IMG/VR virus record: IMGVR_UViG_3300031772_000004
Coordinates: 42,710-106,709 of that record
Origin: a virus
Taxonomy: Duplodnaviria; Heunggongvirae; Uroviricota; Caudoviricetes
DNA: 64,000 bases
Reading direction: 5' to 3' (one strand)
Positions 1-23,365 of the stretch are shown here, piece by piece. The notes under the pieces are model-generated. The model worked only from the letters and a program-made list of their open reading frames with translations, did not search any database and was not told where the DNA came from. A program made the position numbers and the translations under genes. Position 1 is the first letter of the stretch. The number at the start of each line of letters is the position of its first letter.

Positions 1-600
1 TGATTTCATAATTGGATCATGCATTCCGATAATTTCAAAATCTTCTTTATACATCATCCACGGAGCAAAACATCCATTAGTAGTCTTACCTTTAAAATCT
101 AATTTACATTGTTCAACAAATGCGTTGAATTCATTTTCTTTAAAGCCATCTTTTACATCAAGTTCCGGCCACATACCGAAATCTTTTACTATTTTCTCTA
201 ATCCCTCAGGGTGTAAAGGCGGCTCAATTCTCGTGGAGCAAACAACTTTTCTTCTTTCAAGATATTTGTAGGCCTCTAAGTCGGCACCTTTCGCTAGCAT
301 CATATCTGCGTGAAAAATCATAAAAATATCTGTGGCAGAATTTCTAATACAATAATCATAAGCTTTTCCAATTCCATATAAAGAATTATTTAAATCAGGA
401 TTGATATGGTAAGTTAAATTATACACATCTTTTACATTTTTTAACCAGTCAACTGTACCATCTGTATCTTTATCAACAAAAATTGAAATGTCATGGTCAT
501 TTCTGTAAGAATTTTTTCGTATGGATTTTACACACGATTCAAGATAACGCTTGTTATTTTTTGATGGTATACAAAATGTGATTTTTGGTATGTCTATCAT
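1..600 (-). CDS. glycosyltransferase family 2-like (partial; N-terminal 200 aa in window, C-terminus beyond window start)
   Basis: Minus-strand ORF starts at ATG 598-600 and overlaps the stop of the downstream gene (ATGA). N-terminus reads MIDIPKITFCIPSKNNKRYLESCVKSIRKNS...FVDKDTDGT, the GT2-like pattern (IPxxN...DxD). The ORF runs off the window edge. Confidence 0.45.
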   Translation of the reverse strand, partial: MIDIPKITFCIPSKNNKRYLESCVKSIRKNSYRNDHDISIFVDKDTDGTVDWLKNVKDVYNLTYHINPDLNNSLYGIGKAYDYCIRNSATDIFMIFHADMMLAKGADLEAYKYLERRKVVCSTRIEPPLHPEGLEKIVKDFGMWPELDVKDGFKENEFNAFVEQCKLDFKGKTTNGCFAPWMMYKEDFEIIGMHDPIMKS

Positions 601-1217
601 ATATACGCCTTTAATGTTTTAGGTCTATCTGCTAAGTATTGATTGGCTTTTCCAATTGTAGGAATGTGTATTTCCCAAACATTTAATTTTATATTATTAT
701 CATCTAAATACTTATAAATTTTTTTAGAAAGCTCTAGCGTGTGCGCATCAGATATTTTGTTGTCATGCCATTCACCATGTAATTCTTTGATTAATTTTAT
801 AGAGCCGTCATTTATCATTTTATTTAATACTTCATATTCTGCGCCTTCAATGTCTAATTTTAGAATAACATAATCTTGTTCAGTGAAAGTTTCTAATAAC
901 CATTTTGATAAATCTACACAAGGCACATTAATATATACAGATTCATCCAAGTTATTAATGGATTTTCCTAACAAAGAAGAGCCATCGGTTATATCGGTTG
1001 ATACATAAATTTTTTTGATATCATCGTTAATCCACACCGCGGCGTTTAGGATTTGTACAGTGTTATTGTTTTCATGAATTTCTTTTAATTGATTTGCTAA
1101 ATAAGGAATTGGTTCAAAAGAAATTACATGTGTATTAACACCAAACCTTTGTTTTGCGGTAAGAATTGATTCTCCACAATGCGCACCACAATCTATAAAA
1201 TATTTTTCATCGCTCAT
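597..1217 (-). CDS. FkbM-family SAM-dependent methyltransferase
   Basis: FIDCGAHCGES near the N-terminus (FkbM motif). 206 aa. Translationally coupled to neighbours. Confidence 0.55.
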   Translation of the reverse strand: MSDEKYFIDCGAHCGESILTAKQRFGVNTHVISFEPIPYLANQLKEIHENNNTVQILNAAVWINDDIKKIYVSTDITDGSSLLGKSINNLDESVYINVPCVDLSKWLLETFTEQDYVILKLDIEGAEYEVLNKMINDGSIKLIKELHGEWHDNKISDAHTLELSKKIYKYLDDNNIKLNVWEIHIPTIGKANQYLADRPKTLKAYI

Positions 1218-2043
1218 AATTATTTATTTCATTTTTTATCCAATTTTCTATAGAATAATTAGGATTCCAATTAAAATTTTGAATGCTATCGGTTATATAA
1301 AAATTAAATGATGGAGAATACATACCATCTTCGAAACAAAGTGTTGTGTCAGGCAAATACTTACAAATCATATTTGCCAATTCAATATTTGTAATTGATT
1401 TTCCTGATGCAGCTAAAACCATTGAATGATTATTGTTTTTAATAGAAATTTTATAACAAAGTTCGGTTAAATCATCAATATGAAGATAATCTTGGCATCT
1501 ATCTTTGTTTCCTATAATAGTAATTTTTTTATCAGTGATAGCAGCCTTTAATAAAATAGGCAGCAATGATTTTTTATCCATTCCTGTTCCGTAGATGTAT
1601 GTTGGTCGAATTATTGTGTAATTTTCTTTTAACATTATTAAAAATTCTTGAGCCAATTTTGCCATTCCATATTCTCTTGGATTATTATATGAACTATTAA
1701 CATGTATAGTATCTTTATGCTCACCATATACCGCAGTGCTAGATATGAAAATAAGTTTTTTGTATCTTAGTTTAATACCAAAGGTTTGTAATAACGAAAG
1801 TTGATTAAGAAAATCTCTGTGGGAAGAATAATAATTTCCCATTGAAACAAACAAACAATCTAAATCAGACATATGTGACCATTCCATAGAAGGAAATTTT
1901 TGTGTCGGACATAAAACACACTCTTTCGGTATGCTTTCATAATTAGTTTTATAAAATGCATATACTTTATGTCCTAATTGGATATATTTAAGGCATAGGT
2001 TTCTTCCTATGAAACCATTTGCGCCAATAACACCTATATTCAT
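1207..2043 (-). CDS. NAD-dependent epimerase/dehydratase (SDR family)
   Basis: N-terminal Rossmann GxxGxxG: MNIGVIGANGFIGRNL. 278 aa. Sugar-nucleotide context. Confidence 0.55.
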   Translation of the reverse strand: MNIGVIGANGFIGRNLCLKYIQLGHKVYAFYKTNYESIPKECVLCPTQKFPSMEWSHMSDLDCLFVSMGNYYSSHRDFLNQLSLLQTFGIKLRYKKLIFISSTAVYGEHKDTIHVNSSYNNPREYGMAKLAQEFLIMLKENYTIIRPTYIYGTGMDKKSLLPILLKAAITDKKITIIGNKDRCQDYLHIDDLTELCYKISIKNNNHSMVLAASGKSITNIELANMICKYLPDTTLCFEDGMYSPSFNFYITDSIQNFNWNPNYSIENWIKNEINNYER

Positions 2044-3041
2044 AATTGTATTGTGCTTCCTTTTAATTCTCCCTGCCGTTGTAGAGAACTAATAGCAGTA
2101 TTACTTACGACAAGCTCATTCCAATATCTTAAAATCGTGAGCGGTTTAATATCAAATTCTGGTTCTTTTCCTTTTAATATAAAATCCGCTATCATCTTTG
2201 GTTCATTAAATCCGCAAAGTGTTCGTGCCGCAGTTGTTCCGGAGCACCTTGCATTTATTTCTATGATGAATGGAACACCATTTCTTACTCTTAATTGTAT
2301 GTTACACGCACCAAATGGCTTAATTGTATCAGCTATATTTTTTACGCACTTTTCTATAACAATATTGTGTTCCGAAAAGCACTTGTATGTGTCGCCATCT
2401 CGAAGAATCCTACGCATAACAATAACACCTTTACATTCATTGTTTAAGTTTATTGTTCCACAAGTATATTCATCACCCTCAATGTATTCTTGAAGAATGA
2501 AATTGTCGATATTATCACCTATTTTAGCTAATATCAGTTTTAATTCGGTTTTATCCTTTACCAAAAATACATTTTGTGATCTAGCTCCACCAACCATTTG
2601 TTTAATGATAACAGGAAATTCTACATTTTTTGCCTGACTAAGAGGAAAGGTAAATGGAAATTTTCCCGCAACATTTCTATCTAAAGAATCATACATATAT
2701 TGTTTATCATTAGATAATTTAATTACATTTGGATTACTAACTATTACCGTTGTTCCTATTGCTTTAAATGCATCTACATTTAGGGATAATGTTTCTAATT
2801 CGGCGTCAAGACCAGGAAATAGTAAAGAAATACCTTCTTTCTTACAAATGCCTAATAAAACTGATATGTAATCAGGCTTATTAACAAATGGTATTAAATA
2901 AGAATTTGGTACTGCATATAATCCTGTTGCAAGAGTTTCACCATCTAATGCAATAATGTCATAGTCGGTATTATACAAAGACTTTATGATGCTTTGACCA
3001 ACACCGCCACCGGCACCAGTAATCGCAATTTTATGTGCCAT
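2040..3041 (-). CDS. ATP-grasp domain protein (carboxylate-amine ligase)
   Basis: IAITGAGGGVGQS pre-ATP-grasp N-terminus, EYIEGDEYTCG and IIEINARCSGTT (ATP-grasp 'EINAR' Mg/ATP motif). Confidence 0.6.
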   Translation of the reverse strand: MAHKIAITGAGGGVGQSIIKSLYNTDYDIIALDGETLATGLYAVPNSYLIPFVNKPDYISVLLGICKKEGISLLFPGLDAELETLSLNVDAFKAIGTTVIVSNPNVIKLSNDKQYMYDSLDRNVAGKFPFTFPLSQAKNVEFPVIIKQMVGGARSQNVFLVKDKTELKLILAKIGDNIDNFILQEYIEGDEYTCGTINLNNECKGVIVMRRILRDGDTYKCFSEHNIVIEKCVKNIADTIKPFGACNIQLRVRNGVPFIIEINARCSGTTAARTLCGFNEPKMIADFILKGKEPEFDIKPLTILRYWNELVVSNTAISSLQRQGELKGSTIQL

Positions 3042-3043
3042 AA

Positions 3044-3670
3044 TTATTTATAAACCTCAAATTTGCTTAAATCGGGGTATGGCAATTCTAAGTCATCATT
3101 ACATTTTTTACTTCCGTCAATATTGTAAAATTGCTTTATAAGAAGAAGGCCGCGCGCCGATAACTCAGGCATCATATAAAAATTCCAACCTAACATATCA
3201 AAATAATCTTCGTGGTAAGAACATTCTCTTCTTCCTGAAAATCTTGCTCGTTTAAACCAAAAGTATGCGGTTTGACTATCTGTTAAAATAGCACCACCTT
3301 TTGATAGTTTAAAATGTTTGTAGGGACCAGTAAAAGACAGGCACATGTAACTTTTTGGTATATACATATCTGCTGTAAATCTAAGTGCGGAATCCCATAC
3401 ATTTGTCGGCTCTAATTGATATGCTCCTTTTAATGTAGTTCCCACGACAGGTTTAAATTTGACCTTGGCACCAGCATGAATAATTTCACAGGGAACAGAA
3501 GGATAAGTTCGAGAGGGAATTGTAATTTCTTTACCTTTAACATTTTCATATGTTAGTGCTAAAAATAAAGCGTTGCTAGCATTATCTATAGTTATAACAT
3601 AAGGCGCGCCGGTATAATCTGCTAGTTCTTTCTCGAATTCTTCGGTTATTTTATGTACATTATTGGCCAT
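3044..3670 (-). CDS. DegT/DnrJ/EryC1-like PLP aminotransferase-related protein, unusually short
   Basis: EFEKELADYTGAPYVITIDNASNALFLAL...ITIPSRTYPSVPCEIIHAGAKVKF matches the DegT N-terminus. SFTGPYKHFKLSKGGAILTD resembles the PLP-lysine region. Only 208 aa against about 370 for the family. Confidence 0.4.
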   Translation of the reverse strand: MANNVHKITEEFEKELADYTGAPYVITIDNASNALFLALTYENVKGKEITIPSRTYPSVPCEIIHAGAKVKFKPVVGTTLKGAYQLEPTNVWDSALRFTADMYIPKSYMCLSFTGPYKHFKLSKGGAILTDSQTAYFWFKRARFSGRRECSYHEDYFDMLGWNFYMMPELSARGLLLIKQFYNIDGSKKCNDDLELPYPDLSKFEVYK

Positions 3671-3673: not shown

Positions 3674-3895
3674 TTATTCTTCATTAAAAACTTCTATGCA
3701 TAAAACTTTATTGTCGTTTATCATAAGCATAGAGCCATCTTTTCGTTTCATTTTTGTAAATTGACCCTGTTTAATTCCTTCTGTACAGATTCCTGTATAT
3801 GTTCTTTTAATACCACCATCAAAATGTATTATTTGCGTAACATATTTTCCCTGTTCATAGACCGACGAATTTAAATTGACAATTTTTTTAAGCAT
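3674..3895 (-). CDS. hypothetical protein
   Basis: 73-aa ORF packed between neighbours on the same strand. Confidence 0.3.
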   Translation of the reverse strand: MLKKIVNLNSSVYEQGKYVTQIIHFDGGIKRTYTGICTEGIKQGQFTKMKRKDGSMLMINDNKVLCIEVFNEE

Positions 3896-3929: not shown

Positions 3930-4823
3930 TCAAGACATTAAACTATTTTTAATATTATGTAATTCTTCGGAAACCTTTGCAAAAACATCATTTGTTTTTG
4001 ATTGTGCTTTGAATGTAATATATTTAGTCCAAAATTGATGTGCATGCCAATACTTTCTATCTTCTTGTATAATGCAGTTTTTAATTATATATTGTGGTAT
4101 ATTATACTTTCCAGAAGCATTCATCATTTTAAATTTTTCTTGTTGAAATAGGTCTATATGGCGAAAGTCTCCTATGCTTTCTGGCAATTTCATAAGTTTT
4201 GTTAGCTCCTTTGAATGAAAATTAAACCAACCTCCAGCGAATTTGGTGTCATAGTTTTTTAATAAAGAAATTTCCTGTAAATTTATTTTTGTTTCTAATT
4301 CAAATACATTAATATCATCGAAGCTAACTGGAGAATTTACATATTCTTCTGAACTTATGACATTCCAAGATGCGTCCCAAAATTTGGCGATTTGTGGGGT
4401 GATCATATATGTCAATGTTTCTTTTTCTATTGTTGGAATAATGTTTTCTAAAACATGCAAAATTTCTACAGGAAAATATATGTCTGGGTCTAACCAAATT
4501 AAATTATATTCTCCGTTGTTATTGTTTAAAATTCTTCGTTGATGTTCTCCAGAACCTTTTATATCATCATTGATTTCAAAATTTACTTCTTTACAAAAAT
4601 CACAATGTTTTTCAATGTATCTAAATTTATCAACAAAAAACTCCTTTGGTAATTTACAATTATCCCAATCAAGTTTATCATCGGCCATATTAAAAACTAT
4701 GTCCAGACTCAAATACTTTTTGGTGTCGGAATAATTAGCCGCTCTTTTTAATTGATAAATTGTTCTTTCCAATAAATCAATGTGAAATGGGAATATAAAA
4801 TATACTATTTTTGTTTTATCCAT
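3930..4823 (-). CDS. hypothetical protein (glycan island)
   Basis: 297-aa ORF. Compact same-strand arrangement. No motif recognised. Confidence 0.35.
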   Translation of the reverse strand: MDKTKIVYFIFPFHIDLLERTIYQLKRAANYSDTKKYLSLDIVFNMADDKLDWDNCKLPKEFFVDKFRYIEKHCDFCKEVNFEINDDIKGSGEHQRRILNNNNGEYNLIWLDPDIYFPVEILHVLENIIPTIEKETLTYMITPQIAKFWDASWNVISSEEYVNSPVSFDDINVFELETKINLQEISLLKNYDTKFAGGWFNFHSKELTKLMKLPESIGDFRHIDLFQQEKFKMMNASGKYNIPQYIIKNCIIQEDRKYWHAHQFWTKYITFKAQSKTNDVFAKVSEELHNIKNSLMS

Positions 4824-4824: not shown

Positions 4825-5703
4825 TTAAACCTTTCCTATTTGTAACAATTTATTAATCAAGATGTTTTTCTTTTCTGGAGTACTTTCCAATTCAGTATAG
4901 GAAGCGTCTAAAAACGGAGCATAACTTTTACAAATTTCTCCACCATGCAACAATTTTAATTTGTCTTTCCACTTTAAATTATGTACAACGATTGCATGTA
5001 TTTCTTCATCACTCCATGTAAATGGGATGTCCAACCCGAAAGAGCCACCATCGTCGCCATAACCTACAACAATGACTTTTTCAAATCCCATATACCACAA
5101 TAATTGAAATATAATTCCTGATACGTTTCCTCCAGGATGAAATTTTAGTGGATTTGTTCCATATTCATCCACAGAGGATTGAATGTAAGTACTTAAAACA
5201 GGATAAGATTGCCCACTGTTTATATCTCTGTGCTCTATACAAAGATAAGTATTTGGAACTTGCCTGCAATATTCTTCACCGTGAAATTTATATAACTGTC
5301 CCGTTGTGAATATCCAATTATAGCAAGGAAGCTCATTGCATGCTATTATTTTTATTAGATTTGGATTTTGTAATATTATCTCCCGCTTTCCCTCTATCCA
5401 AATAGGAGCATCGTCAAATCTAAAACTAGCTTTGTCTCTTAACATAAAATCTCCACCAATGTATTTATGTAAAAAAAACGATTTATCTTCAAAATATTCC
5501 CGAGCAATACTATTATCAGCGGTAAGATATAAATCACAATTTGGATAGATTTTTATGTTACGATTTACGGTAACAGTAAAATTATTTTTGATAATTTCTT
5601 GAAGATTGTTTACATTTTTTGTGGATGGTCCACCTAAAATACAAAACGCAGTATTACTATTGGCAATATCTTTCCATTGTGAATTTATATAATAATTTTT
5701 CAT
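4825..5703 (-). CDS. hypothetical protein (glycan island)
   Basis: 292-aa ORF. Abuts neighbours. No motif recognised. Confidence 0.35.
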   Translation of the reverse strand: MKNYYINSQWKDIANSNTAFCILGGPSTKNVNNLQEIIKNNFTVTVNRNIKIYPNCDLYLTADNSIAREYFEDKSFFLHKYIGGDFMLRDKASFRFDDAPIWIEGKREIILQNPNLIKIIACNELPCYNWIFTTGQLYKFHGEEYCRQVPNTYLCIEHRDINSGQSYPVLSTYIQSSVDEYGTNPLKFHPGGNVSGIIFQLLWYMGFEKVIVVGYGDDGGSFGLDIPFTWSDEEIHAIVVHNLKWKDKLKLLHGGEICKSYAPFLDASYTELESTPEKKNILINKLLQIGKV

Positions 5704-6450
5704 TTAGTTTTTTGAAAGTTTGTCGAGCAAAGCAGATATGTTATTGTCTTGTTCGTTTATTTTGGTTATCAATTTTTTTGTTTCTGTTGGTGCGTGGGTG
5801 ACAGCTATGCGCAGAATATCCATCCAATTAACATTATTTTTCGTTCGAGCGGCTTCAATGTCATTTATAATTTCTAAATCTGTTTCATTATTTTTCATAT
5901 TATTTAAGTATTCTTTTATGTTTATATCCCAATTTTTTATGTTGGATGGTAAATCTACCAATTTGTGATATGTCCCAATACCCTCTTGTTTTTTTGGGAT
6001 GATATTACAATGTAATAACGCCTGATAATTTTCTTTGAATAAATTTTCAATTTCATTTCTTAATCTATTATATGTTTTACGGAAAGTGTTTTCGCTTTCT
6101 TCGAATATTATTTTCTTTTGAACTAATATGTCTCCTGTATCTATACCCCTGTCTAAAATATGTATAGTAACTCCCGCCGGAGTAGATTCGTAAAATGACC
6201 AAAAATTAGGATTCGTGCCTCTATTATATGGTAAATAACTTATATGTAAATTAATTATTTTATTTTTAAATTGTGAAATTACATCTTCTTTTATAATATG
6301 TTTATATCCATAACTTATAATAAAATCAAAGTTTTTAGATTCTTCTGGGGTTATTTTATCTTTTCGCTGAACTATATTGTAATCATGGTCTCGCAAAAAC
6401 TTTATAAGGCAAGTTTCGGATTCATTGTAACCTAAAAATAATATTTTCAC
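5704..6450 (-). CDS. formyltransferase (sugar N-formyltransferase / Fmt-PurN family)
   Basis: MKILFLGYNE... then IINLHISYLPYNRGTNPNFWS, the formyl_trans_N catalytic motif (N-H...SLLP-RG). Confidence 0.6.
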   Translation of the reverse strand: MKILFLGYNESETCLIKFLRDHDYNIVQRKDKITPEESKNFDFIISYGYKHIIKEDVISQFKNKIINLHISYLPYNRGTNPNFWSFYESTPAGVTIHILDRGIDTGDILVQKKIIFEESENTFRKTYNRLRNEIENLFKENYQALLHCNIIPKKQEGIGTYHKLVDLPSNIKNWDINIKEYLNNMKNNETDLEIINDIEAARTKNNVNWMDILRIAVTHAPTETKKLITKINEQDNNISALLDKLSKN

Positions 6451-16827: not shown

Positions 16828-17703
16828 TTATATCTCCTCCATTTTGTTTCTTACTATATCAGCCACATCTATTGCTCTTATAGATTCCGCTACGCTTTTG
16901 TTGTAACTGGTTTTATAATAGTGTTTATGTAGCAATGGTGATATAACTTTAGTTACGATGCCATAATCTTCTATTTCCCATGGAGATGTGCAAGTAAACA
17001 TTGTTATACATGGTATTTTATGTGCGATGCATACATGCATCGGTAAACTATCGCTGCATATTACAAGTTTGTGGCCTGTTAAATCCGCTATATATTGTTT
17101 AATGGTTTTTCTTCGTTTTAAATAGTTGATTTTATATCCATAAACTTCTAATATACTTTCCAATTCTTTCATATGTGCCCAATTTTTAGTTGGCCAAACA
17201 GAACTATCTGATATTACCATTCCTATATCTCCTGCAAATTTTCTATCAGATACATTATATGTTGGTTTATAATACTTTTCACCATTAAATTTCTTTCCAA
17301 CCATCGTTGCAACAATCTCTTGATAAGATCTTCTATTGGAAAATTTTATTGCATCCGATGTTTCTTTTCCTAACACGCTAATTCGGCTCATATTAAACCA
17401 TTCTGATGAATCTAAAGTATATGTCAAAACCTTTTGATTTAATAGATATGGACCTATATAAGAATCGGCTTTAATACCACTTGTTGCCGATACAAATATA
17501 TTTTTATCTTCTTCTAAATTAATAACCAAATCATAATGTTTGGAATCATATTGCTTAGGATTAGTATATACAATTCCATCAACCAAACAAGCATTTTCTT
17601 TAGTGGTAAACCAATGAATTTCATCCTTGCTAAGCAATTTTGATAAAAATGTGGTTCTTAGAACATCCCCTGATGCTCCCGTCTTTATTATCAATATTTT
17701 CAT
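16828..17703 (-). CDS. GT9-family glycosyltransferase (heptosyltransferase-like)
   Basis: MKILIIKTGASGDVLRTT N-terminus and C-terminal GHKLVICSDSLPMHVCIAHKIPCITMF, both typical of GT9. Confidence 0.55.
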   Translation of the reverse strand: MKILIIKTGASGDVLRTTFLSKLLSKDEIHWFTTKENACLVDGIVYTNPKQYDSKHYDLVINLEEDKNIFVSATSGIKADSYIGPYLLNQKVLTYTLDSSEWFNMSRISVLGKETSDAIKFSNRRSYQEIVATMVGKKFNGEKYYKPTYNVSDRKFAGDIGMVISDSSVWPTKNWAHMKELESILEVYGYKINYLKRRKTIKQYIADLTGHKLVICSDSLPMHVCIAHKIPCITMFTCTSPWEIEDYGIVTKVISPLLHKHYYKTSYNKSVAESIRAIDVADIVRNKMEEI

Positions 17704-18395
17704 TATCTTGTAACTTTATAACCCTTGTTCTCTTCAACTGTGAACAATTTATTATAACGCAAATTTGTTTCCATTTGCTTTTCCATCGTCTTTCGATGAT
17801 ACAACGCAAGTTCTTCTTCTTTCGGAAGATGTGCGAATGTTTTATGCCCAATGATTTTTTCATGTAAGCGCCCTTCCCATTTTATATTAGGCAAGTTTTT
17901 GAAAATTCGTGTTTGATAATCGCCTCCATTCCAATTTACCCATTTACCAGGATTATTTATATCCCACCCCCACATTTTTGCATGCTGTTCTGTAACGCCC
18001 TCATACATATTTATTCGTGGAATCCAAAACAATTCTGTTGCTGGATTTTCTTTTAATATATCCGGCAAGTCTTCTAAAAGCGATTCTGCTGGTAATTCAT
18101 CAGCATCAATTTGAAAGATATATTCTCCCTTACAAAGTGATTTGCCATAATTCTTGTGTTCTCCGTAATTATTGTTTAGAGCGTGTTGATGGACTGTAAA
18201 ATTTGGTTTTAATGTCATTGGATGTACAACAGAACATTTGCTTAATACTTCCTTCGTATTTATATCATCACTAAAGTCATCCAATACAATGATTTCACCA
18301 TCTGTATTATATTTGCATAACAAAGATAGTAAATCTTTTAATTGTTTACTTTCATTGTGACATGTGACCAAATAACTTATAAATGGATTATTCAT
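17703..18395 (-). CDS. glycosyltransferase family 2
   Basis: ISYLVTCHNESKQL...IIVLDDFSDD (GT2 DxD-type motifs). Confidence 0.5.
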   Translation of the reverse strand: MNNPFISYLVTCHNESKQLKDLLSLLCKYNTDGEIIVLDDFSDDINTKEVLSKCSVVHPMTLKPNFTVHQHALNNNYGEHKNYGKSLCKGEYIFQIDADELPAESLLEDLPDILKENPATELFWIPRINMYEGVTEQHAKMWGWDINNPGKWVNWNGGDYQTRIFKNLPNIKWEGRLHEKIIGHKTFAHLPKEEELALYHRKTMEKQMETNLRYNKLFTVEENKGYKVTR

Positions 18396-18397: not shown

Positions 18398-19003
18398 TTA
18401 TTTCTTAAATATAATAAATTTATACATTCCTTTTCCTGCTCCCCAATAAGATTCTAAATTTGTATTGTTGTTTATTTCAATATACTCTTTAGTTTTTGTG
18501 TTATAAACAAATGGTTTGAATTTTTTGTCTAATACATCTGATATCAATTTTTTCCAAAATAATTTTCCCATGGGTGTATGAGATTCGTCGGATGATATGA
18601 ATTCATAATTTTTTAATATATATTCTAATATCCAATATCTAGCCAATCCAAATGTATGTTTTTCTTGCCATATGTTTTTTGAAGATATACCAATTTTATT
18701 ATCTATTTTTATTTCTTCAAATTCATGAATTAAAGCAATGTGGGATTGTTTTTCAACTAATAAATTCATAAAAATCATACCATCTTCAATTGTTTTGTAT
18801 ATTCTAAAATTTTGCTCTCCGTTTTTAAATATCCCAATTAATTTATCTCGTTTTTCTATTTTTTCTGCTTCTCTTCTGTTTAAAACAGGATCTGAATCGA
18901 ATCGGTTTAAAAATTGTGGGACATCGCTTGGGGATTCTATCATAAGATTTGATATACCATATATTTCTTTTATGTATTTTTTATAATTTAATTTATTTTT
19001 CAT
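18398..19003 (-). CDS. hypothetical protein
   Basis: 201-aa ORF. Confidence 0.3.
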   Translation of the reverse strand: MKNKLNYKKYIKEIYGISNLMIESPSDVPQFLNRFDSDPVLNRREAEKIEKRDKLIGIFKNGEQNFRIYKTIEDGMIFMNLLVEKQSHIALIHEFEEIKIDNKIGISSKNIWQEKHTFGLARYWILEYILKNYEFISSDESHTPMGKLFWKKLISDVLDKKFKPFVYNTKTKEYIEINNNTNLESYWGAGKGMYKFIIFKK

Positions 19004-19059: not shown

Positions 19060-19293
19060 TTACTCTTTAATCTTTACAAAATGATGCTCGACGGTTAATG
19101 GCGCAACACAACTAAACTTTTCTGTGTAGAGATATTCACCGTCGATGGTGACACCATCCCCATATAGACTACCCTCACCGGTATCAAGAGCATCTGCTAT
19201 ATGTTTTACAATTCTTTCTTGCTCTTGATTAGTTGGCTGTCTATCCAATTCTATTGTAACAATTATATCTAATTTCATGCTCATATTATACAC
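19060..19293 (-). CDS. hypothetical protein
   Basis: 77-aa ORF overlapping the next gene's start. Confidence 0.25.
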   Translation of the reverse strand: MYNMSMKLDIIVTIELDRQPTNQEQERIVKHIADALDTGEGSLYGDGVTIDGEYLYTEKFSCVAPLTVEHHFVKIKE

Positions 19294-20608
19294 TGCTACT
19301 TATTGGTAACACAATTTGTGGGTTAACTATTTTCTTTAGTTTTGGTAATATGATTTTTTGCTCCGTGGGAAATTCTGGTATATATTTGTCCAAGAGAGCA
19401 TGAAATGCTTTGTCCATTTGTAACAAACTAAACTTTTCCATGTTTTCTACACGAAGATTTTCAGCCTTTTCGAGCAATTTTTCATAATTATCAATCAAAC
19501 CCTTCATCTTTCTTCCGGCTTGTTCGTAATTTACATTAAACCATCCGGCTTCTCTTATAAGCCACTCATTTGCTGATTCTGGTGGAATCTGCTTTATTTC
19601 TCCAGTTAATAAATTTGTATATTGTGGATTTAAAAAGTCAAGGTGGCCACTCCAATTTGATGCTAAGATAGGCTTTCCACTTAATGATGCTAATAGTAAT
19701 GGATGACCATAACCTTCTCCGTGAGTAAAATTGACATGTGCTTTAATTTTTTTATGATTATACAGATAATTCATCTCAGCGTCGGTTAGATCGCCATGTA
19801 AAAGATATATTTGTGGTAAATTGTCTCCACCCACTTCTTTTTTGATTCTGTCAATCTTATCTAGTATTTCATATTTGTCTATTTTAGAAAATGATACACC
19901 GCTTGTCTTTAAGACTAGAGCGGGTTTCTTCTTTTCATCTCTAAATGTAGTTAGGAAAGTTTTTATCAGATTTCCTATGTCTTTTCTGTCGTTATAAAGA
20001 CCGGCGTTATGTGTCCATTGACCAACAAAAAGAAAACAAAAATCTTCTTTTATTGCATCTAACACGACATCAACACTATTAATTTTTTCGTCTACTTTTT
20101 TATAAACCTCTGTATTTGCTCCCCAAAATAAAACTTCCATTGGTTTTGTTGATTTTAAATCTTCTGATTGTCCTGTCTGATTAAATGTTTTCTTATATGA
20201 TGTCTTTAAAAAAACATCCTTGACAAAATTACTTAACACAAAATTGACATCCATTTTATTAAGTCCTTCAATCCATTCTGGCTTAGGAACAGTGGTTTCA
20301 ATACCTGCCGTCATTCCTATGTTTACTTTACCAACGCCATTAAATTCGTTTGGTATGCTTATTTGTATATAAACTTCTGGTTGCTTAGGTAATGGTCCCC
20401 TTAATATTTGATTAAATAAAAGTTTTTCTTGCTCATCTTCTAAATCATCAATAGAATGCTTTGTTGGACAGCCACCCCATCGTGTTGGCACTATTTTTAA
20501 ATCAAATTTATCATAACGCAATAAAGATTTAGCAATAGCCATACTCCAATCACCATAACCACTTCTTGTAAACAACGCGGATTGTAAAATGCAAACAGGT
20601 TTATTCAT
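19286..20608 (-). CDS. GT-B fold glycosyltransferase (GT1/GT4-like)
   Basis: C-terminal THGEGYGHPLLLASLSGKPILASNWSG resembles the GT4 EX7E region. Confidence 0.45.
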   Translation of the reverse strand: MNKPVCILQSALFTRSGYGDWSMAIAKSLLRYDKFDLKIVPTRWGGCPTKHSIDDLEDEQEKLLFNQILRGPLPKQPEVYIQISIPNEFNGVGKVNIGMTAGIETTVPKPEWIEGLNKMDVNFVLSNFVKDVFLKTSYKKTFNQTGQSEDLKSTKPMEVLFWGANTEVYKKVDEKINSVDVVLDAIKEDFCFLFVGQWTHNAGLYNDRKDIGNLIKTFLTTFRDEKKKPALVLKTSGVSFSKIDKYEILDKIDRIKKEVGGDNLPQIYLLHGDLTDAEMNYLYNHKKIKAHVNFTHGEGYGHPLLLASLSGKPILASNWSGHLDFLNPQYTNLLTGEIKQIPPESANEWLIREAGWFNVNYEQAGRKMKGLIDNYEKLLEKAENLRVENMEKFSLLQMDKAFHALLDKYIPEFPTEQKIILPKLKKIVNPQIVLPISSSV

Positions 20609-20610
20609 AT

Positions 20611-20904
20611 TTATTTTCCAATTTTTTCATCCATAACTCTAACATAAGAGGACTCGACTTTTAAATTTATATCTGCTTTATGCTCTGTTATAGGTTCTTT
20701 ATCAACCATCATATAGAATATCATTCCAATCTTGTGTGGAGATTTAAATTCGTCAAGTTGGTTACTAATTCCCGCTTTAGAAAAAAGAGAACCTGTAGAA
20801 TTTGTTGTATCATTTCGAATACTTTCCACTTCTTTTGTTATATTGTAAAAATATTCCACTAATTCTTCTTTTGTGCCTTCAATTATTTTTTTCTCATTAA
20901 TCAT
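20611..20904 (-). CDS. hypothetical protein
   Basis: 97-aa ORF. Confidence 0.3.
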   Translation of the reverse strand: MINEKKIIEGTKEELVEYFYNITKEVESIRNDTTNSTGSLFSKAGISNQLDEFKSPHKIGMIFYMMVDKEPITEHKADINLKVESSYVRVMDEKIGK

Positions 20905-21878
20905 ATCTTTATTTCCTTTATTTGTTTTTCTATTTCTTCTGTGTTAATTTTTGGTATATCAAATCCCATACTATCAAATGGCATTTTATGACCCACATGT
21001 TCAGCGTTAGTATGTAAACTAAAGCGTGTGGTTGGTTCAAAATTCTCAAGAGTATAATCCATGCCCTTTATAAATTCTTCACACATATGCGGTGCATTAA
21101 TATTGCCCTCATTCAATGCCCAGCGTCTGCCTTCTAAACCACATTTTTCTCTCTGTTCCTTAGGCATCAGATACCAATACATAATTGCTTCCGCGACATC
21201 TTCCCACTTACACACATCATCAAAAATATATGGTGTTGGCGGCGAACCTTGAATATAACGGGTTGAAGGCCACACCGGTTTTGCCCAAACTCCACATTTC
21301 TTATATTTTCCTACATTATTAGTTCCAAAATTATAATCAAATTCAACGGGCTTACCATCATCATCTATTTGACCAATTTGGTCTTGTAAACCGCCAGTAA
21401 CATTAACAATGACGGGAACGCCAGCCATTATAGATTCTCCGCAGGACAACCCAAATCCTTCATTGGAAGAAATATTTGCGGTAACATCGGCTAAATTATA
21501 CAAAAGATTCATTGCTTCTGGTAAAAACTTATCTTCAGTTACGACAATAGTATAATCGGGTGATAATGCTGAATGAACAACTGGCAAATCTGTGCCTGCA
21601 TCCAATATTTTTTCTGTGTGTAATACTAATGCACACTTAGACGCTTGCTCTTTTGTAAGATTATCACAGAATGCACGAAATGCTAACATTAATTGGGCCG
21701 TTCGTTTTCTGTTAATGTTTCGGCTGTTATAAAATACAACAAAATCATAACTTTTATTCCCAAACATTTTCTTTTTCATTTCAATAAGTTTTGGGTCGGT
21801 TTTATGTATTGGTTTAAAAACCTTCGGATTAATTCCGTGGGGCAAATATTGTAATAAGTGTTTTCCTTTTATTGGCAT
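20901..21878 (-). CDS. GT-B fold glycosyltransferase (GT1/GT4-like)
   Basis: SNEGFGLSCGESIMAGVPVIVNVTGG, the GT4 nucleotide-sugar-binding motif. Confidence 0.5.
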   Translation of the reverse strand: MPIKGKHLLQYLPHGINPKVFKPIHKTDPKLIEMKKKMFGNKSYDFVVFYNSRNINRKRTAQLMLAFRAFCDNLTKEQASKCALVLHTEKILDAGTDLPVVHSALSPDYTIVVTEDKFLPEAMNLLYNLADVTANISSNEGFGLSCGESIMAGVPVIVNVTGGLQDQIGQIDDDGKPVEFDYNFGTNNVGKYKKCGVWAKPVWPSTRYIQGSPPTPYIFDDVCKWEDVAEAIMYWYLMPKEQREKCGLEGRRWALNEGNINAPHMCEEFIKGMDYTLENFEPTTRFSLHTNAEHVGHKMPFDSMGFDIPKINTEEIEKQIKEIKI

Positions 21879-21889
21879 ATATAATTCCT

Positions 21890-22393
21890 TTAATCTAACG
21901 GCGCTTGTTCATTTTCAAGCTCTTCTACAAAAAACTCATTGATTGAACTTCTTTCTTCTTTTGTCAATGGAGTTTGTTTTGGAAATTTATCCAAGACATC
22001 TTTGAAATCCTTAGAAATTTCAATAAATGTGGTCTTATCTGTCTCACAAAACATTTTTTCAATTTTTATGTATAATTTATCTGGAAACTCCTTCAAATAA
22101 TAATCGAATGCTGGACAAAACCAAGCAACTAAATTTGTTTTTTCACATACATAATATGCACCAATCTTTAATCCTTCAGGATTAACCTTTGTAAAGATAG
22201 TATCATAAGCAGGAATTTCTTCGGCTGAAAATAGAAAATTTACAATTGTTATTTTTTGGTCATTAATCATTTTATCAATTATGACAGGAAATCCAAAAGG
22301 CAATGCTTCTTCTTTGACACCCATGTACATGTCATCAAAAGACCAACCTTTATTGTGTCGGTATAACTGAATTTTATGTGTGTTGTTATTCAT
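21890..22393 (-). CDS. hypothetical protein
   Basis: 167-aa ORF. Confidence 0.3.
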   Translation of the reverse strand: MNNNTHKIQLYRHNKGWSFDDMYMGVKEEALPFGFPVIIDKMINDQKITIVNFLFSAEEIPAYDTIFTKVNPEGLKIGAYYVCEKTNLVAWFCPAFDYYLKEFPDKLYIKIEKMFCETDKTTFIEISKDFKDVLDKFPKQTPLTKEERSSINEFFVEELENEQAPLD

Positions 22394-22628
22394 GAATTTT
22401 TTTAGGATAAACTTCCCATGTTTTTAGTGTTTTATCTCCTAAAATTATACTTGCTTGTATTTTATTATTGATGTCGTCTGTCTCCATAACAAGTTTTAAA
22501 TCAGGAAGCAGTCGTTCATATTTTTCTTCTTCATATACAATATTAATATCCTTTATATCTACAACTGTATTTCCACACCGTACAAACGAACCTGCTGCTG
22601 GTCCCCATTTATCTATTTTCTTTTTCAT
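22386..22628 (-). CDS. hypothetical protein
   Basis: 80-aa ORF. Confidence 0.25.
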   Translation of the reverse strand: MKKKIDKWGPAAGSFVRCGNTVVDIKDINIVYEEEKYERLLPDLKLVMETDDINNKIQASIILGDKTLKTWEVYPKKIHE

Positions 22629-23164
22629 TTTATAATCTTTCCATGCTCATCGTATTCGCCTTCAATAGTCCGACAATTTTCAGGTCGCAGAACCCATTTA
22701 TTAATATTATAAGTTTGCTTACTAATACTAAACAATGTGTCACAGCTCTCATAAAATGGCCGATTCCACATCGGATAGGGAATGTCATCCCAAATATTTA
22801 AATAAGTAATCGGTATTTTCGTTCTGATTTTTCTCTCTAAAATATATAACCAATGCCAATAACGCGGGTCGGTAAAATGTAACAAAGCATTCGGCTTTTC
22901 AATATTCATTACTGCCATCAATATATCTTCATTGCCATAACCATCCGTAGGATATAGTTTCAAATATGCATCACTTACACCGGTTTCCGCTTCAACTGCT
23001 TTTGACATATCTATAACTTTGCCTGTTTCTGGATGCTTAACACTTCCGGCAATTTGTACCCAATCATAATGATGGATTGTTCCAAATACAAGTTCCTTGC
23101 TTTGTGCTGCTATTCCAGAAAAAAAGCGTATGTCATCTGCTAGTAATAGTATTTTCTTTTTCAT
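22625..23164 (-). CDS. hypothetical protein
   Basis: 179-aa ORF. First gene after the divergent region together with 23171..23365. Confidence 0.3.
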   Translation of the reverse strand: MKKKILLLADDIRFFSGIAAQSKELVFGTIHHYDWVQIAGSVKHPETGKVIDMSKAVEAETGVSDAYLKLYPTDGYGNEDILMAVMNIEKPNALLHFTDPRYWHWLYILERKIRTKIPITYLNIWDDIPYPMWNRPFYESCDTLFSISKQTYNINKWVLRPENCRTIEGEYDEHGKIIK

Positions 23165-23170
23165 AATTTA

Positions 23171-23365
23171 TCAGTCCAATAAAAGTTTTTTTGTTTCTTG
23201 TTTTTCTTCGACTTTCTTGCTGCCAGAAATGAATTCATTAATACTTTTTTCAACAACCCAAGTCAGTTTTTGCCCAGATTGCCCACAAAAAGCTTTTAAT
23301 ATTTCATGTAAATCCAATGATATTTGAACGGATGTTTTTGGTGTTTCTTTTTTGTTATTATTCAT
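23171..23365 (-). CDS. hypothetical protein
   Basis: 64-aa ORF. First gene of the minus-strand operon. Confidence 0.25.
   Translation of the reverse strand: MNNNKKETPKTSVQISLDLHEILKAFCGQSGQKLTWVVEKSINEFISGSKKVEEKQETKKLLLD

What the first reader, a model, noticed from the sequence alone, without database searches (positions are those of the whole stretch)
1..23365. 23-kb phage-borne nonulosonic-acid (sialic-acid-like) biosynthesis and glycosyltransferase island made only of soluble enzymes
A single minus-strand operon-like block encodes a NeuB-family synthase, a CMP-sugar cytidylyltransferase, a PseB/CapD 4,6-dehydratase, PLP aminotransferases, a Gfo/Idh/MocA oxidoreductase, an SDR epimerase, a formyltransferase, an LmbE deacetylase, an ATP-grasp ligase, three SAM methyltransferases and at least seven glycosyltransferases (GT2 x3-4, GT9, GT-B x2). 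That set is a complete toolkit for making a CMP-activated pseudaminic/legionaminic-type nonulosonic acid and attaching it together with other sugars. No polytopic membrane proteins (Wzx flippase, Wzy polymerase, WbaP/WecA-type initiating transferase, ABC exporter) are visible among the island ORFs. That argues for cytoplasmic glycosylation of a protein or other intracellular target (virion proteins, as in flagellin-type O-glycosylation, or another phage or host macromolecule) rather than synthesis of an exported capsule or O-antigen. A viral genome devoting more than a third of this window to a decorated nonulosonic acid pathway is unusual.
Basis: partly seen in the sequence, partly recalled or inferred. 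Interest (0 to 1): 0.8.

Follow-up and report, generated by a model that had tools for sequence, protein, structure and literature searches.

The report
Phage sialic-acid-like sugar and glycosyltransferase island
A large uncultured bacteriophage carries a roughly 25-kb block of soluble enzymes that should make an activated, decorated sialic-acid-like sugar and attach it with other sugars to an unknown target, and the core of this block, including a flagellin-type sugar transferase fold not found in GenBank phage records, is shared by a lineage of related aquatic phages.

Summary
Thirty-one minus-strand ORFs from 1 to 23365 encode NeuB, a CMP-sugar cytidylyltransferase, a PseB-like dehydratase, aminotransferases, Gfo/Idh/MocA, SDR, formyltransferase, LmbE, ATP-grasp, three methyltransferases and at least nine glycosyltransferase-like proteins. 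None has a predicted membrane helix. The rest of the window is phage: a T4-type PolB, clamp loader and ligase, on a contig of at least 204.8 kb.

New results:
- The island runs about 1.9 kb past the left edge.
- A syntenic core cassette recurs in at least ten uncultured phage contigs.
- The cultured Microcystis phage Mel-JY01 shares only the four-glycosyltransferase block.
- The N-acyl slot is swapped: a GNAT in relatives, methyltransferase/LmbE/formyltransferase here.

The sugar's stereochemistry is unresolved, and two pathway steps are only inferred. The acceptor is not determined. Virion or other protein glycosylation is my leading reading (about 0.45). Remodelling of the host surface through host export machinery remains a serious rival (about 0.35). 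Sugar and glycosyltransferase islands in large aquatic phages are already described; the nonulosonic-acid pathway with a Maf-type transferase is a new variant. Interest 0.65.

The parts
1..600 (-). N-terminal 200 aa of a 411-aa GT2 glycosyltransferase. The gene continues beyond the left end of the window. It is the last large gene of the block.
   Evidence: Frame translation. The full gene is on L001 8158-9393; Pfam Glycos_transf_2 1.3e-11. It is 47-55% identical in 9 related phage loci.
597..1217 (-). FkbM-type SAM methyltransferase
   Evidence: Pfam Methyltransf_21 5.3e-15
1207..2043 (-). SDR NAD-dependent sugar epimerase/reductase. It is a possible partner of the GDP-mannose dehydratase at 50188.
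   Evidence: Pfam Epimerase 3e-19, GDP_Man_Dehyd 9.6e-11, RmlD_sub_bind 9e-8. The partnership with the dehydratase is inference.
2040..3041 (-). ATP-grasp ligase (PylC-like). Candidate for attaching an amino or carboxylic acid to a sugar amine.
   Evidence: Pfam PylC-like_N 9.3e-15, ATPgrasp_Ter 4.1e-13, ATP-grasp_3 4.5e-10. The substrate is inferred.
3044..3670 (-). Shortened DegT-like PLP protein (208 aa). It keeps the N-terminal segment and the 'PYK' lysine region, and lacks about 60 central and about 70 C-terminal residues.
   Evidence: Pfam DegT 3.7e-15, covering only profile positions 26-91. Residues 116-191 align to 179-253 of a full-length phage DegT. It is 78-79% identical in L011 and L012.
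3674..3895 (-). Conserved 73-aa ORF of unknown function
   Evidence: Called on L001 4863-5084. It is 68-71% identical in L011 and L012. No Pfam match.
3930..4823 (-). Conserved 297-aa protein, suspected to be a GT-A-type glycosyltransferase (motif LDPDIYFP). Unproven.
   Evidence: 48 homologue clusters at 53-73% identity. No hit to a PDB profile. Only faint GT49/GT2 hits in single family members. hhalign against GT2 is inconclusive.
4825..5703 (-). Maf / sialyltransferase-fold protein (DUF115/PF01973 superfamily). Candidate CMP-nonulosonic acid transferase.
5704..6450 (-). Formyltransferase. Candidate N-formylation of the sugar amine.
   Evidence: Pfam Formyl_trans_N 3.4e-18. 53% identical in phage contig L008.
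6447..7100 (-). LmbE/PIG-L N-deacetylase
   Evidence: Pfam PIG-L 5.7e-18. 53% identical in L008.
7097..7861 (-). Class I SAM methyltransferase
   Evidence: Pfam Methyltransf_25/12/23/11 down to 8.3e-11
7858..8829 (-). NeuB-family nonulosonic acid synthase
   Evidence: Pfam NeuB 9.5e-69. NCBIfam NeuB_NnaB 293 bits and PseI 254 bits, both below their cut-offs. Best PDB match is PseI 8h2c at 1.7e-47. 61-73% identical in 11 phage loci and 32% in L011.
8826..9641 (-). Gfo/Idh/MocA oxidoreductase
   Evidence: Pfam GFO_IDH_MocA 7.3e-12 plus the C3 domain. 52-57% identical in relatives.
9638..10336 (-). CMP-sugar cytidylyltransferase (CTP_transf_3)
   Evidence: Pfam 3.4e-11. NCBIfam PseF 1.5e-9 over the full length, but 37.8 bits against a cut-off of 205.7. 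65-73% identical in L011-L020.
10333..10953 (-). Conserved 206-aa protein. It carries a SAM-methyltransferase-like motif (ILIFGCANGRD) by eye only.
   Evidence: No Pfam, NCBIfam or PDB hit. 37-44% identical in relatives.
10950..12230 (-). Class III (HemL-like) PLP aminotransferase
   Evidence: Pfam Aminotran_3 6.1e-53. NCBIfam PRK06209 2e-105, below its cut-off. 70-75% identical in relatives.
12220..13242 (-). PseB-like UDP-GlcNAc 4,6-dehydratase
   Evidence: Pfam Polysacc_synt_2 6.4e-75. Best PDB match is H. pylori FlaA1/PseB 2gn4 at 4.9e-62, with the motif STDKA...YGATK conserved. NCBIfam PseB 255 bits, below the cut-off of 407.75.
13235..14374 (-). GT-B-fold protein. It is either a NeuC/LegG-like hydrolysing 2-epimerase (the missing pathway step) or a TagF-like transferase.
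14371..15252 (-). RXYLT1_C-like glycosyltransferase
   Evidence: Pfam RXYLT1_C 9.4e-11
15249..16121 (-). GT2 glycosyltransferase
   Evidence: Pfam Glycos_transf_2 7.2e-9. 49-52% identical in L013-L015, L017 and L019.
16118..16825 (-). FkbM-type methyltransferase
   Evidence: Pfam Methyltransf_21 5.5e-17
16828..17703 (-). GT9-like (heptosyltransferase family) glycosyltransferase
   Evidence: Pfam Glyco_transf_9 3.3e-7, 30.3 bits against a cut-off of 22, C-terminal part only
17703..18395 (-). GT2 glycosyltransferase
   Evidence: Pfam Glycos_transf_2 6e-14. 35% identical to the syntenic Mel-JY01 gene.
18398..19003 (-). 201-aa protein of unknown function
   Evidence: No Pfam hit. Weak match to phrog_1349.
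19286..20608 (-). GT-B (GT1/GT4-like) glycosyltransferase, 440 aa
   Evidence: Pfam Glycos_transf_1 at 23 bits, below its cut-off. PHROG 2170 glycosyltransferase 6.5e-10. 39% identical to the syntenic Mel-JY01 gene.
20611..20904 (-). 97-aa ORF of unknown function
   Evidence: No family match
20901..21878 (-). GT4 glycosyltransferase (C-terminal Rossmann half recognised)
   Evidence: Pfam Glycos_transf_1 2.3e-9; GT4-conflict 27.7 bits against a cut-off of 26. 43% identical to the Mel-JY01 gene.
21890..22628 (-). Two small ORFs (167 aa, weak DUF6717; 80 aa). They are inserted between the two GT4-related genes.
   Evidence: Both are absent from the equivalent position in Mel-JY01.
22625..23164 (-). 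179-aa protein. Its homologue in Mel-JY01 is annotated as a putative glycosyltransferase.
   Evidence: 59% identical to Mel-JY01 WWT39373. No Pfam hit.
23171..23365 (-). 64-aa first ORF of the block. A TATAAATA motif lies 48 nt upstream at 23413-23420 (-).
   Evidence: Gene call on L009. Motif found; the motif count over the whole window equals chance, so this is only a lead.
50188..51459 (+). GDP-mannose 4,6-dehydratase. It lies outside the island and probably feeds a 6-deoxyhexose branch.
   Evidence: Pfam GDP_Man_Dehyd 8e-98. A homologue at 49-50% identity lies next to the NeuB cluster in phage contigs L007 and L008.

Best explanation
The island is a phage-resident, lineage-conserved cytoplasmic glycosylation module.

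Step 1 (shown at family level): a PseB-like 4,6-dehydratase, a PLP aminotransferase, a NeuB-family synthase and a CTP_transf_3 cytidylyltransferase convert UDP-GlcNAc into a CMP-activated 5,7-diamino-3,5,7,9-tetradeoxy-nonulosonic acid of the Pse/Leg family. The stereochemistry is unresolved.

Step 2 (inferred): the GT-B protein at 13235-14374 supplies the nucleotide-release or 2-epimerase step. The formyltransferase N-acylates the new amine in place of the GNAT used by relatives. LmbE, the ATP-grasp ligase and the methyltransferases re-decorate the second amine or the hydroxyls.

Step 3 (fold shown, activity inferred): the Maf-fold protein at 4825-5703 transfers the nonulosonic acid. The other eight or more soluble glycosyltransferases, together with a GDP-6-deoxyhexose branch (Gmd at 50188 plus the SDR at 1207), build the rest of the glycan.

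Step 4 (inferred, least certain): the acceptor is a protein glycosylated in the cytoplasm, most probably a virion structural protein. Progeny particles would then carry a phage-specified, sialic-acid-like glycan coat.
For: - Enzyme families.
- No membrane helices in any island ORF. No flippase, polymerase or initiating transferase in the flanks of this phage or of the annotated relatives.
- Synteny: the core cassette is syntenic in at least 10 uncultured phage contigs, at 61-75% identity for the NeuB, aminotransferase, dehydratase and Maf-like genes in 9 of them (NeuB is 32% in L011). Shared non-island genes (DNA ligase, w49034 homologue) are only about 34-40% identical. This fits a function under strong selection in the lineage.
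- The four-glycosyltransferase block next to the PD-(D/E)XK nuclease is retained in the cultured phage Mel-JY01, whose PolB is 40% identical.
- Codon usage matches the rest of the genome.
- The N-acyl slot is swapped, GNAT in relatives versus MT/LmbE/Fmt here. This is the kind of variation expected for an exposed antigen.
Against: - No acceptor has been identified, and nothing links the island physically to structural genes in the window.
- The Maf-like protein is only the catalytic core (292 aa against 632 aa for Maf). It lacks the N- and C-terminal domains of Maf that are thought to bind flagellin (my recollection of Sulzenbacher et al.). Its size is that of the LOS sialyltransferase Cst-II (recollection).
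- Soluble glycosyltransferases are also the rule in O-antigen and capsule loci.
- Published analyses of similar islands favour modification of the host surface.
- The pathway enzymes score below every NCBIfam equivalog cut-off.
- No acetyltransferase or PseG was recognised, so the product itself is not certain.
Confidence: 0.45

Rival explanations
1. Remodelling of the host cell surface. The phage makes the CMP-nonulosonic acid and other nucleotide sugars, and its soluble glycosyltransferases act at the inner face of the membrane. The acceptors would be host undecaprenyl-linked O-antigen, capsule or LOS intermediates, or host pilin, flagellin or S-layer protein. Host flippase, polymerase and ligase finish the export. 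The altered surface would block superinfection or stop progeny from adsorbing to infected cells and debris.
For: - This is the published reading of glycosyltransferase-rich hypervariable regions in T4-like marine phages and jumbo cyanophages (PMC7029224; PMC7824862).
- The GT9 family is typically LPS-core.
- There is a weak GtrB-like PHROG hit for 17703-18395.
- The 379-aa protein resembles the TagF/TarL polymerases as closely as it resembles epimerases.
- The Maf-like protein lacks Maf's extra N- and C-terminal domains and shares its fold with LOS sialyltransferases.
- Accessory genes vary between relatives.
Against: - There is no initiating phosphoglycosyltransferase, GtrA/Wzx-type flippase, Wzy, ligase or ABC exporter in the island or its flanks, here or in the annotated relatives.
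- The core is conserved and syntenic rather than sporadic.
- The best structural neighbour of the transferase is a protein glycosyltransferase.
- The phage has a T4-like replication module, and no integrase was seen in the window.
Confidence: 0.35
2. DNA hypermodification. Some or all of the glycosyltransferases glycosylate modified bases in the phage genome, as T4 glucosylates hydroxymethylcytosine, and the island supplies unusual sugar donors.
For: - The island is flanked by DNA-modification genes: Mom family at 29105-29908; a second Mom, two DruA and QueC to the left; radical SAM, dCMP deaminase and a nucleoside deoxyribosyltransferase-like gene.
- The GT4 at 20901-21878 passes the Pfam 'GT4-conflict' cut-off.
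- Phage glycosyltransferases that build DNA glycans are known (10.1101/2023.12.21.572611).
Against: - In the relatives the cassette is not next to these genes.
- No hydroxymethylase or TET-type enzyme appeared among the window genes annotated.
- The DNA-glycan paper does not mention nonulosonic or sialic acids.
- A CMP-nonulosonic acid pathway with a Maf-fold transferase has no precedent on DNA.
Confidence: 0.07
3. The block is not really phage DNA: it is a bacterial surface-polysaccharide locus joined to phage sequence by misassembly, or a very recent capture without function in the phage.
For: - Its genes are of bacterial type.
- Island GC is slightly lower than the rest of the window (0.302 against 0.343).
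- Some related short contigs are binned in Flavobacteriaceae or Pelagibacter MAGs.
Against: - Identical island proteins occur on 16 independently assembled contigs, joined on both sides to phage genes.
- The RSCU correlation with the rest of the window is 0.935.
- The same cassette sits in at least 10 other viral contigs of up to 176 kb.
- The Maf-like family was not found in 185,579 species genomes; the search was pattern-limited.
Confidence: 0.03

Closest known systems
Maf-dependent flagellin glycosylation islands of Campylobacter, Helicobacter, Aeromonas, Clostridium botulinum, Geobacillus and Magnetospirillum
   Same: - Both couple a cytoplasmic CMP-Pse/Leg pathway (PseB-type dehydratase, aminotransferase, NeuB-family synthase, cytidylyltransferase) to a PF01973/DUF115-fold transferase, with no flippase or polymerase.
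- Both carry accessory N-acyl and methyl tailoring enzymes. The C. botulinum sugar carries an N-methyl-glutamyl group. By my inference, that chemistry would need a deacetylase, ligase and methyltransferase like those found here.
   Different: - There is no flagellin gene.
- The transferase is 292 aa, the catalytic core only, against about 630 aa for Maf.
- It fails the Pfam cut-off (16.9 against 34.6 bits).
- It forms a small phage-restricted family of 34 clusters among 1.84 billion proteins.
- It sits alongside eight or more further glycosyltransferases, inside a virus.
LPS/sugar and glycosyltransferase islands of T4-like marine myophages and jumbo cyanophages (PMC7029224; PMC7824862)
   Same: These are also large blocks of nucleotide-sugar enzymes with several glycosyltransferase families in large aquatic phages. 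Accessory content varies between relatives, and no export genes are described.
   Different: - Those papers mention no nonulosonic or sialic acid or NeuB (text searches).
- NeuB occurs in only 3 of 50,697 GenBank phage records, and the Maf-like protein in none.
- Here the core is syntenic and well conserved rather than sporadic.
Microcystis phage Mel-JY01 (PP395634), the closest cultured phage
   Same: - PolB is 40% identical, the clamp loader 41% and the PD-(D/E)XK nuclease 39%.
- The same four-gene glycosyltransferase block sits next to the nuclease, at 59, 43, 39 and 35% identity.
   Different: It has no NeuB, dehydratase, cytidylyltransferase or Maf-like gene. Its block continues with a methyltransferase and another GT2 only.
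Virus-encoded virion glycosylation: mycobacteriophage capsid and tail-tube O-glycans (Freeman et al. 2023, cited in PMC12619734); chlorovirus PBCV-1 and mimivirus glycan machinery (from memory)
   Same: The virus carries its own soluble glycosyltransferases, methyltransferases and, in giant viruses, nucleotide-sugar pathways including GDP-mannose dehydratase. These decorate structural proteins in the cytoplasm.
   Different: To my knowledge none of these uses a nonulosonic acid made by the virus. The acceptor here is unproven.
Haloarchaeal virus HRPV-1 spike glycan with 5-N-formyl-legionaminic acid (from memory, not checked here)
   Same: It is a virion protein carrying an N-formylated nonulosonic acid.
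   Different: In HRPV-1 the sugar and the glycosylation are supplied by the host. Here the pathway is encoded by the virus.

Membership tests
NeuB family (nonulosonic acid synthase) | Pfam PF03102 above its gathering score over the full domain | tested here: met
   231.9 bits against a cut-off of 22.1; profile positions 1-236 of 241
NeuB/LegI or PseI equivalog (which sugar is made) | NCBIfam TIGR03569 or TIGR03586 above its trusted cut-off | tested here: not met
   293.3 against 399.65 and 254.5 against 340.25. The best PDB relative is PseI 8h2c, so the two tests disagree.
PseB (inverting UDP-GlcNAc 4,6-dehydratase) | Polysacc_synt_2 domain, a soluble protein of about 330 aa, TDK plus the Tyr of YxxxK, and the equivalog score | tested here: inconclusive
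   The domain scores 6.4e-75. The best PDB match is FlaA1/PseB, with STDKA...YGATK conserved. TIGR03589 scores 255 against a cut-off of 407.75.
CMP-nonulosonic acid synthetase (PseF/LegF/NeuA) | CTP_transf_3 domain and the equivalog score | tested here: inconclusive
   PF02348 scores 43.8 against 22.6, which is met. PseF aligns over the full length but scores 37.8 against 205.7.
Canonical pseudaminic acid pathway (PseB, C, H, G, I, F) | A GNAT N-acetyltransferase (PseH) and a MurG-like UDP-sugar hydrolase (PseG) are present | tested here: not met
Canonical legionaminic acid pathway (LegB, C, H, G, I, F) | LegB-type dehydratase, LegC, a hexapeptide acetyltransferase and a NeuC-like hydrolysing 2-epimerase | tested here: inconclusive
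Maf (motility-associated factor) flagellin nonulosonic acid transferases, PF01973 | PF01973 domain above its gathering score | tested here: not met
   16.9 bits against 34.6. Divergent family members reach 15-26 bits.
Maf, PF01973 | Modified GT-A fold of the central domain, related to the GT42 sialyltransferases | tested here: met
Maf, PF01973 | N- and C-terminal domains flanking the catalytic domain, and a flagellin partner | tested here: not met
   The protein is 292 aa against 632 aa for Maf. No flagellin gene appears in the window or in the related loci annotated.
Maf, PF01973 | Catalytic acidic residues equivalent to E324/D415 of M. magneticum Maf, and transferase activity | not tested
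   No residue-level structural alignment was available. Activity needs experiment.
Wzx/Wzy- or ABC-dependent surface polysaccharide locus | A polytopic flippase, polymerase, initiating phosphoglycosyltransferase or exporter in the locus | tested here: not met
   The maximum 19-residue hydropathy is below 1.6 in all 28 ORFs of at least 80 aa, and no in-frame small ORF reaches the threshold. No such Pfam family occurs in or beside the island. The only membrane ORF is a 113-aa protein with a weak DUF1360 match.
Phage GtrABC O-antigen conversion | A GtrA small flippase, a membrane-anchored GtrB and a GtrC | tested here: not met
   There is only a weak GtrB-like PHROG hit (5e-6) to a soluble 230-aa GT2. 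No GtrA or GtrC is present.
Virion glycosylation systems (mycobacteriophage type) | Glycans demonstrated on capsid or tail proteins | not testable with these tools
   This needs virions and mass spectrometry.

The most novel reading that the evidence does not exclude
A lineage of large uncultured aquatic phages synthesises its own tailored nonulosonic acid; in this phage it is probably N-formylated and further acylated or methylated. A minimal, phage-specific Maf-type enzyme then O-glycosylates the phage's own virion proteins. This would be the first virus-encoded sialic-acid-like protein glycosylation system in a bacteriophage. Swapping of the N-acyl module between relatives would act as antigenic variation of the particle surface.
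Probability: 0.35. Interest if true: 0.85.

Novelty: new variant of a known kind. Interest (0 to 1): 0.65.

Why it matters
Nonulosonic acids are surface signatures that bacteria use on flagella, capsules and LPS. Phages are known to recognise or degrade them, but not to make them. A conserved phage-encoded pathway with its own Maf-fold transferase would mean several things:
- Some abundant aquatic phages coat a target with a sialic-acid-like glycan of their own design. The target could be their particles or their host.
- This would bear on adsorption, superinfection exclusion, grazing or immune recognition, and particle stability.
- The 292-aa protein would be the smallest known Maf-type enzyme. 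It would be a compact tool for glyco-engineering and a handle on how Maf enzymes choose acceptors.
- The shared glycosyltransferase block in the cultured phage Mel-JY01 makes part of the question testable at the bench.

Tried and rejected
- Megablast of both halves of the window against 50,697 GenBank phage records gave no match.
- Single-sequence PDB searches for the four unannotated ORFs gave nothing useful.
- A PDB profile search found nothing for the 297-aa family. The search for the Maf-like family gave only chance-level hits.
- hhalign of the 297-aa family against the island's GT2 proteins was inconclusive.
- The AlphaFold-database fold library was unavailable. The viral fold library gave only weak matches (TM 0.4-0.5) to DUF115/MptE-like proteins of uncultured phages and ChoanoV1.
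- I considered that the short DegT was a pseudogene or split gene. I rejected this because the 208-aa form and the upstream 73-aa ORF are conserved at 68-79% identity in relatives.
- I considered that the 113-aa membrane ORF just outside the window was a GtrA-type flippase. I rejected this because it has no GtrA match and is not conserved in relatives.
- I looked for T4-type late promoters (TATAAATA). The total count equals chance at 16 against 16.1. The copy upstream of the block is therefore only a lead.
- There are no tRNAs in the window.
- Sample accessions and 'Mel-JY01' were not found in the paper library. Habitat and host remain unknown.
- A search of 185,579 species genomes for the Maf-like family found nothing. 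For NeuB it found only lone homologues at up to 57% identity in Parachlamydiales and Alphaproteobacteria, plus short phage-like contigs in Flavobacteriaceae and Pelagibacter MAGs. No donor lineage or host could be named.

Full report
**1. What is in the sequence**

The window has about 30% GC. From 597 to 23164, 28 ORFs of at least 80 aa lie head to tail on the minus strand, most overlapping by 4 bp. Only two gaps exceed 20 bp. With the small conserved ORFs at 3674-3895 and 23171-23365 and the truncated gene at 1-600, the block holds 31 genes.

- NeuB (9.5e-69) and a PseB/CapD-type dehydratase (6.4e-75)
- a class III aminotransferase (6e-53) and a CTP_transf_3 cytidylyltransferase
- Gfo/Idh/MocA, an SDR epimerase, a formyltransferase, LmbE and a PylC-like ATP-grasp ligase
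- two FkbM methyltransferases and one class I SAM methyltransferase
- three GT2, one GT9-like, one RXYLT1-like and two GT1/GT4-type glycosyltransferases

No island ORF has a hydrophobic 19-residue window reaching the classical 1.6 threshold.

**2. It is phage DNA and the island is resident**

The rest of the window encodes a T4-type family B polymerase (phrog_262, 2.3e-162), clamp loader, helicase, ATP-dependent ligase, a PD-(D/E)XK nuclease and Mom-family proteins. Identical island proteins occur on 16 independently assembled contigs, the longest 204,840 bp. The island is therefore about 12% of a genome of at least 205 kb.

Relative synonymous codon usage of island genes correlates with that of the other genes at r = 0.935. 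No GenBank phage is close at the DNA level. The nearest polymerase is that of Microcystis phage Mel-JY01, at 40% identity.

**3. True limits of the island**

Contig L001 shows that the gene cut at the left edge is a 411-aa GT2. It is followed by a 113-aa ORF and a 93-aa ORF, and then by an opposite-strand block of DruA, Mom and QueC genes.

The 113-aa ORF has about three hydrophobic segments. It matches only DUF1360, weakly, and is not conserved in relatives. It is not a recognisable flippase.

**4. The unannotated ORFs**

*ORF 4825-5703.* It has a single sub-threshold Pfam hit, to MptE-like/DUF115 (E = 0.0058).
- It has 84 homologue clusters at 50-88% identity, all unnamed, on contigs of up to 178 kb, including Tara samples.
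- An AlphaFold model built on 47 of them is confident (pLDDT 91.8).
- A profile of the family searched against 1.84 billion proteins finds only 34 clusters. Its three most distant hits are genuine PF01973 proteins (45-64 bits against a cut-off of 34.6), and every divergent member gives a sub-threshold PF01973 hit at the same place.
- The family is therefore a small, divergent, apparently phage-restricted branch of the Maf/DUF115 superfamily. It is absent from all 50,697 GenBank phage records. The pattern search of 185,579 species genomes did not find it.

*ORF 3930-4823.* It is conserved in the lineage. It could not be assigned.

*The 208-aa DegT-like protein.* It keeps the N-terminal segment and the lysine region but lacks much of a normal DegT. 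Its conservation argues that it is functional, but its role is unknown.

**5. Which sugar**

The dehydratase is closest to H. pylori PseB and keeps the motif STDKA...YGATK. From memory, that tyrosine distinguishes PseB from CapE and PglF.

The synthase scores higher on the NeuB/LegI model than on PseI in NCBIfam, but is closest to PseI among solved structures.

Relatives carry a GNAT next to NeuB; from memory, PseH is a GNAT. The Gfo/Idh/MocA gene and the 2-epimerase-like GT-B protein recall Leg loci, again from memory.

All equivalog cut-offs are missed. I therefore call the product a 5,7-diamino-tetradeoxy-nonulosonic acid of unresolved configuration.

**6. Comparative genomics**

Two look-ups of long contigs and a scan of IMG/VR show the same ordered cassette in at least ten further uncultured phage contigs with 28-32% GC. 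The order is: GT4-related pair, 440-aa GT-B, two GT2, the 379-aa GT-B, dehydratase, class III aminotransferase, the 206-aa protein, cytidylyltransferase, Gfo/Idh/MocA, NeuB, GNAT, Maf-like, the 297-aa protein and the 411-aa GT2.

Identities are 61-75% for the NeuB, aminotransferase, dehydratase and Maf-like genes in nine of these contigs (NeuB is 32% in L011). Shared non-island genes are only about 34-40% identical.

Two other IMG/VR contigs, L007 and L008, carry a smaller NeuB cluster. They are T4-like, with RNR, a UvsX-like RecA, DnaB and primase. Their cluster has the same formyltransferase and LmbE at 53% identity and a GDP-mannose dehydratase next to it.

Specific to this window are the RXYLT1-like and GT9-like transferases, all three methyltransferases, the SDR and its PylC-like ATP-grasp ligase (L012 carries a different ATP-grasp type). 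Also specific is the replacement of the GNAT by methyltransferase, LmbE and formyltransferase in the slot between NeuB and the Maf-like gene.

The cultured phage Mel-JY01 keeps the nuclease and the four-glycosyltransferase block in the same order, at 59, 43, 39 and 35% identity. It has no nonulosonic-acid genes.

The picture is an old glycosyltransferase block, a nonulosonic-acid cassette added in an aquatic sub-lineage, and rapidly exchanged tailoring genes.

**7. Mechanism**

The biosynthetic half is well supported at family level, and I give it about 0.85. It comprises a CMP-activated, tailored nonulosonic acid and a GDP-6-deoxyhexose branch from the dehydratase at 50188-51459 with the SDR at 1207-2043.

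The transfer half rests on fold and context.

The target is the open question.

For a protein, probably virion, acceptor:
- the nearest structural relative of the transferase is a cytoplasmic protein O-glycosyltransferase
- there are no lipid-carrier or export genes anywhere near the island
- the core is conserved
- the tailoring module is swapped between relatives
- viruses that glycosylate their own particles are a known precedent

For a host-envelope acceptor:
- this is the published default for such islands
- envelope glycosyltransferases are soluble too
- GT9-like and TagF-like features are present
- the Maf-like protein lacks Maf's N- and C-terminal domains, which I recall are thought to bind flagellin

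DNA glycosylation is suggested only by the neighbouring DNA-modification genes. In relatives the cassette is not next to such genes.

My estimates are protein/virion 0.45, host surface 0.35, DNA 0.07 and artefact 0.03.

**8. Novelty**

Large sugar and glycosyltransferase islands in T4-like marine phages and jumbo cyanophages are described (PMC7029224, PMC7824862). Text searches of those two papers for sialic and nonulosonic acid terms found nothing. My library searches found no paper describing a phage-encoded nonulosonic-acid pathway.

NeuB is present in 3 of 50,697 GenBank phage records, one of which is really a Moritella contig.

I therefore rate this a new variant of a known kind. It is not categorically new, and its most interesting reading is untested.

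Noticed in passing
window 29105-29908 (+), 28710-29102 (+), 57613-58527 (-), 63355-63930 (-), 41139-41696 (+), 40168-41157 (+); L001 9999-16827: The phage carries a dense set of DNA or nucleotide modification genes. They include two Mom-family proteins (one in the window at 3.9e-48), two DruA-like proteins, QueC, a radical SAM enzyme, NUDIX, dCMP deaminase, a nucleoside 2-deoxyribosyltransferase-like protein and an IMPDH/GMP-reductase-like protein. Together they suggest a hypermodified genome, possibly deazaguanine or Mom-type.
   Followed up: partly
window 50188-51459 (+) and 52648-54597 (+): A GDP-mannose 4,6-dehydratase (8e-98) sits 27 kb from the island. It lies 1.2 kb upstream of a 649-aa Gly/Ser/Asn-rich repeat protein with a weak beta-roll hit and a (T/S)ASY-repeat tail. 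That protein looks like a tail fibre and could be a glycosylation target.
   Followed up: partly
window 4825-7861 versus L012-L019 (about 9390-10000): The slot between NeuB and the Maf-like gene holds a 139-aa GNAT in eight relatives. In this phage it holds SAM-methyltransferase, LmbE and formyltransferase instead. This is a clean swap of the N-acyl tailoring module.
   Followed up: yes
L035/L036 (Mel-JY01, PP395634, 83.4-89.7 kb): The closest cultured phage has a syntenic PD-(D/E)XK nuclease and a four-glycosyltransferase block at 35-59% identity, but no nonulosonic-acid genes. It offers an experimental handle.
   Followed up: yes
window 20901-23164 (-): The two GT4-related genes (179 aa and 325 aa) are adjacent in Mel-JY01. 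Here they are separated by two small inserted ORFs (167 aa, weak DUF6717; 80 aa).
   Followed up: partly
window 44448-46694 (+): A 748-aa protein combines an ArdC-N anti-restriction domain with a C-terminal glucosaminidase/transglycosylase-like region (PHROG endolysin / tail-injection hits). It may be an ejected virion protein.
   Followed up: no
window 23413-23420 (-), 24911-24918 (-) and elsewhere: TATAAATA, the T4 late-promoter consensus, lies 48 nt upstream of the first ORF of the island and 37 nt upstream of the nuclease gene. The total count equals chance. However, 13 sense-strand copies fall in minus-coded blocks and none falls in sense orientation in the plus-coded replication block.
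   Followed up: partly
L001 9390-9731 (about 0.6-1.0 kb left of the window start): A 113-aa ORF with about three hydrophobic segments ends the operon. It has a weak DUF1360 match and is not conserved in relatives.
   Followed up: yes
window 24924-25679 (+), 31520-32506 (+), 62144-63307 (-): These are exported or lipoprotein-like phage proteins. One is a 251-aa protein with a lipobox-like N-terminus. One is a Band_7/SPFH protein with a lipobox. One is a 387-aa protein with a signal peptide and FN3/HYR-like domains.
   Followed up: no
window 23445-23747 (+), 55463-56122 (-), 56986-57519 (-): A T5orf172 domain protein and an HNH endonuclease are probable homing endonucleases. A zeta-toxin/AAA_33 kinase-like protein lies near them.
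   Followed up: no
L032 (contig NZIO01000013, binned as a Pelagibacter MAG): An 11.9-kb contig of 28.8% GC, assigned to a Candidatus Pelagibacter MAG, carries a NeuB homologue, Gmd and a homologue of phage gene 49034-49753. It is probably a mis-binned phage fragment and a faint hint at a SAR11-type host for the wider lineage.
   Followed up: partly
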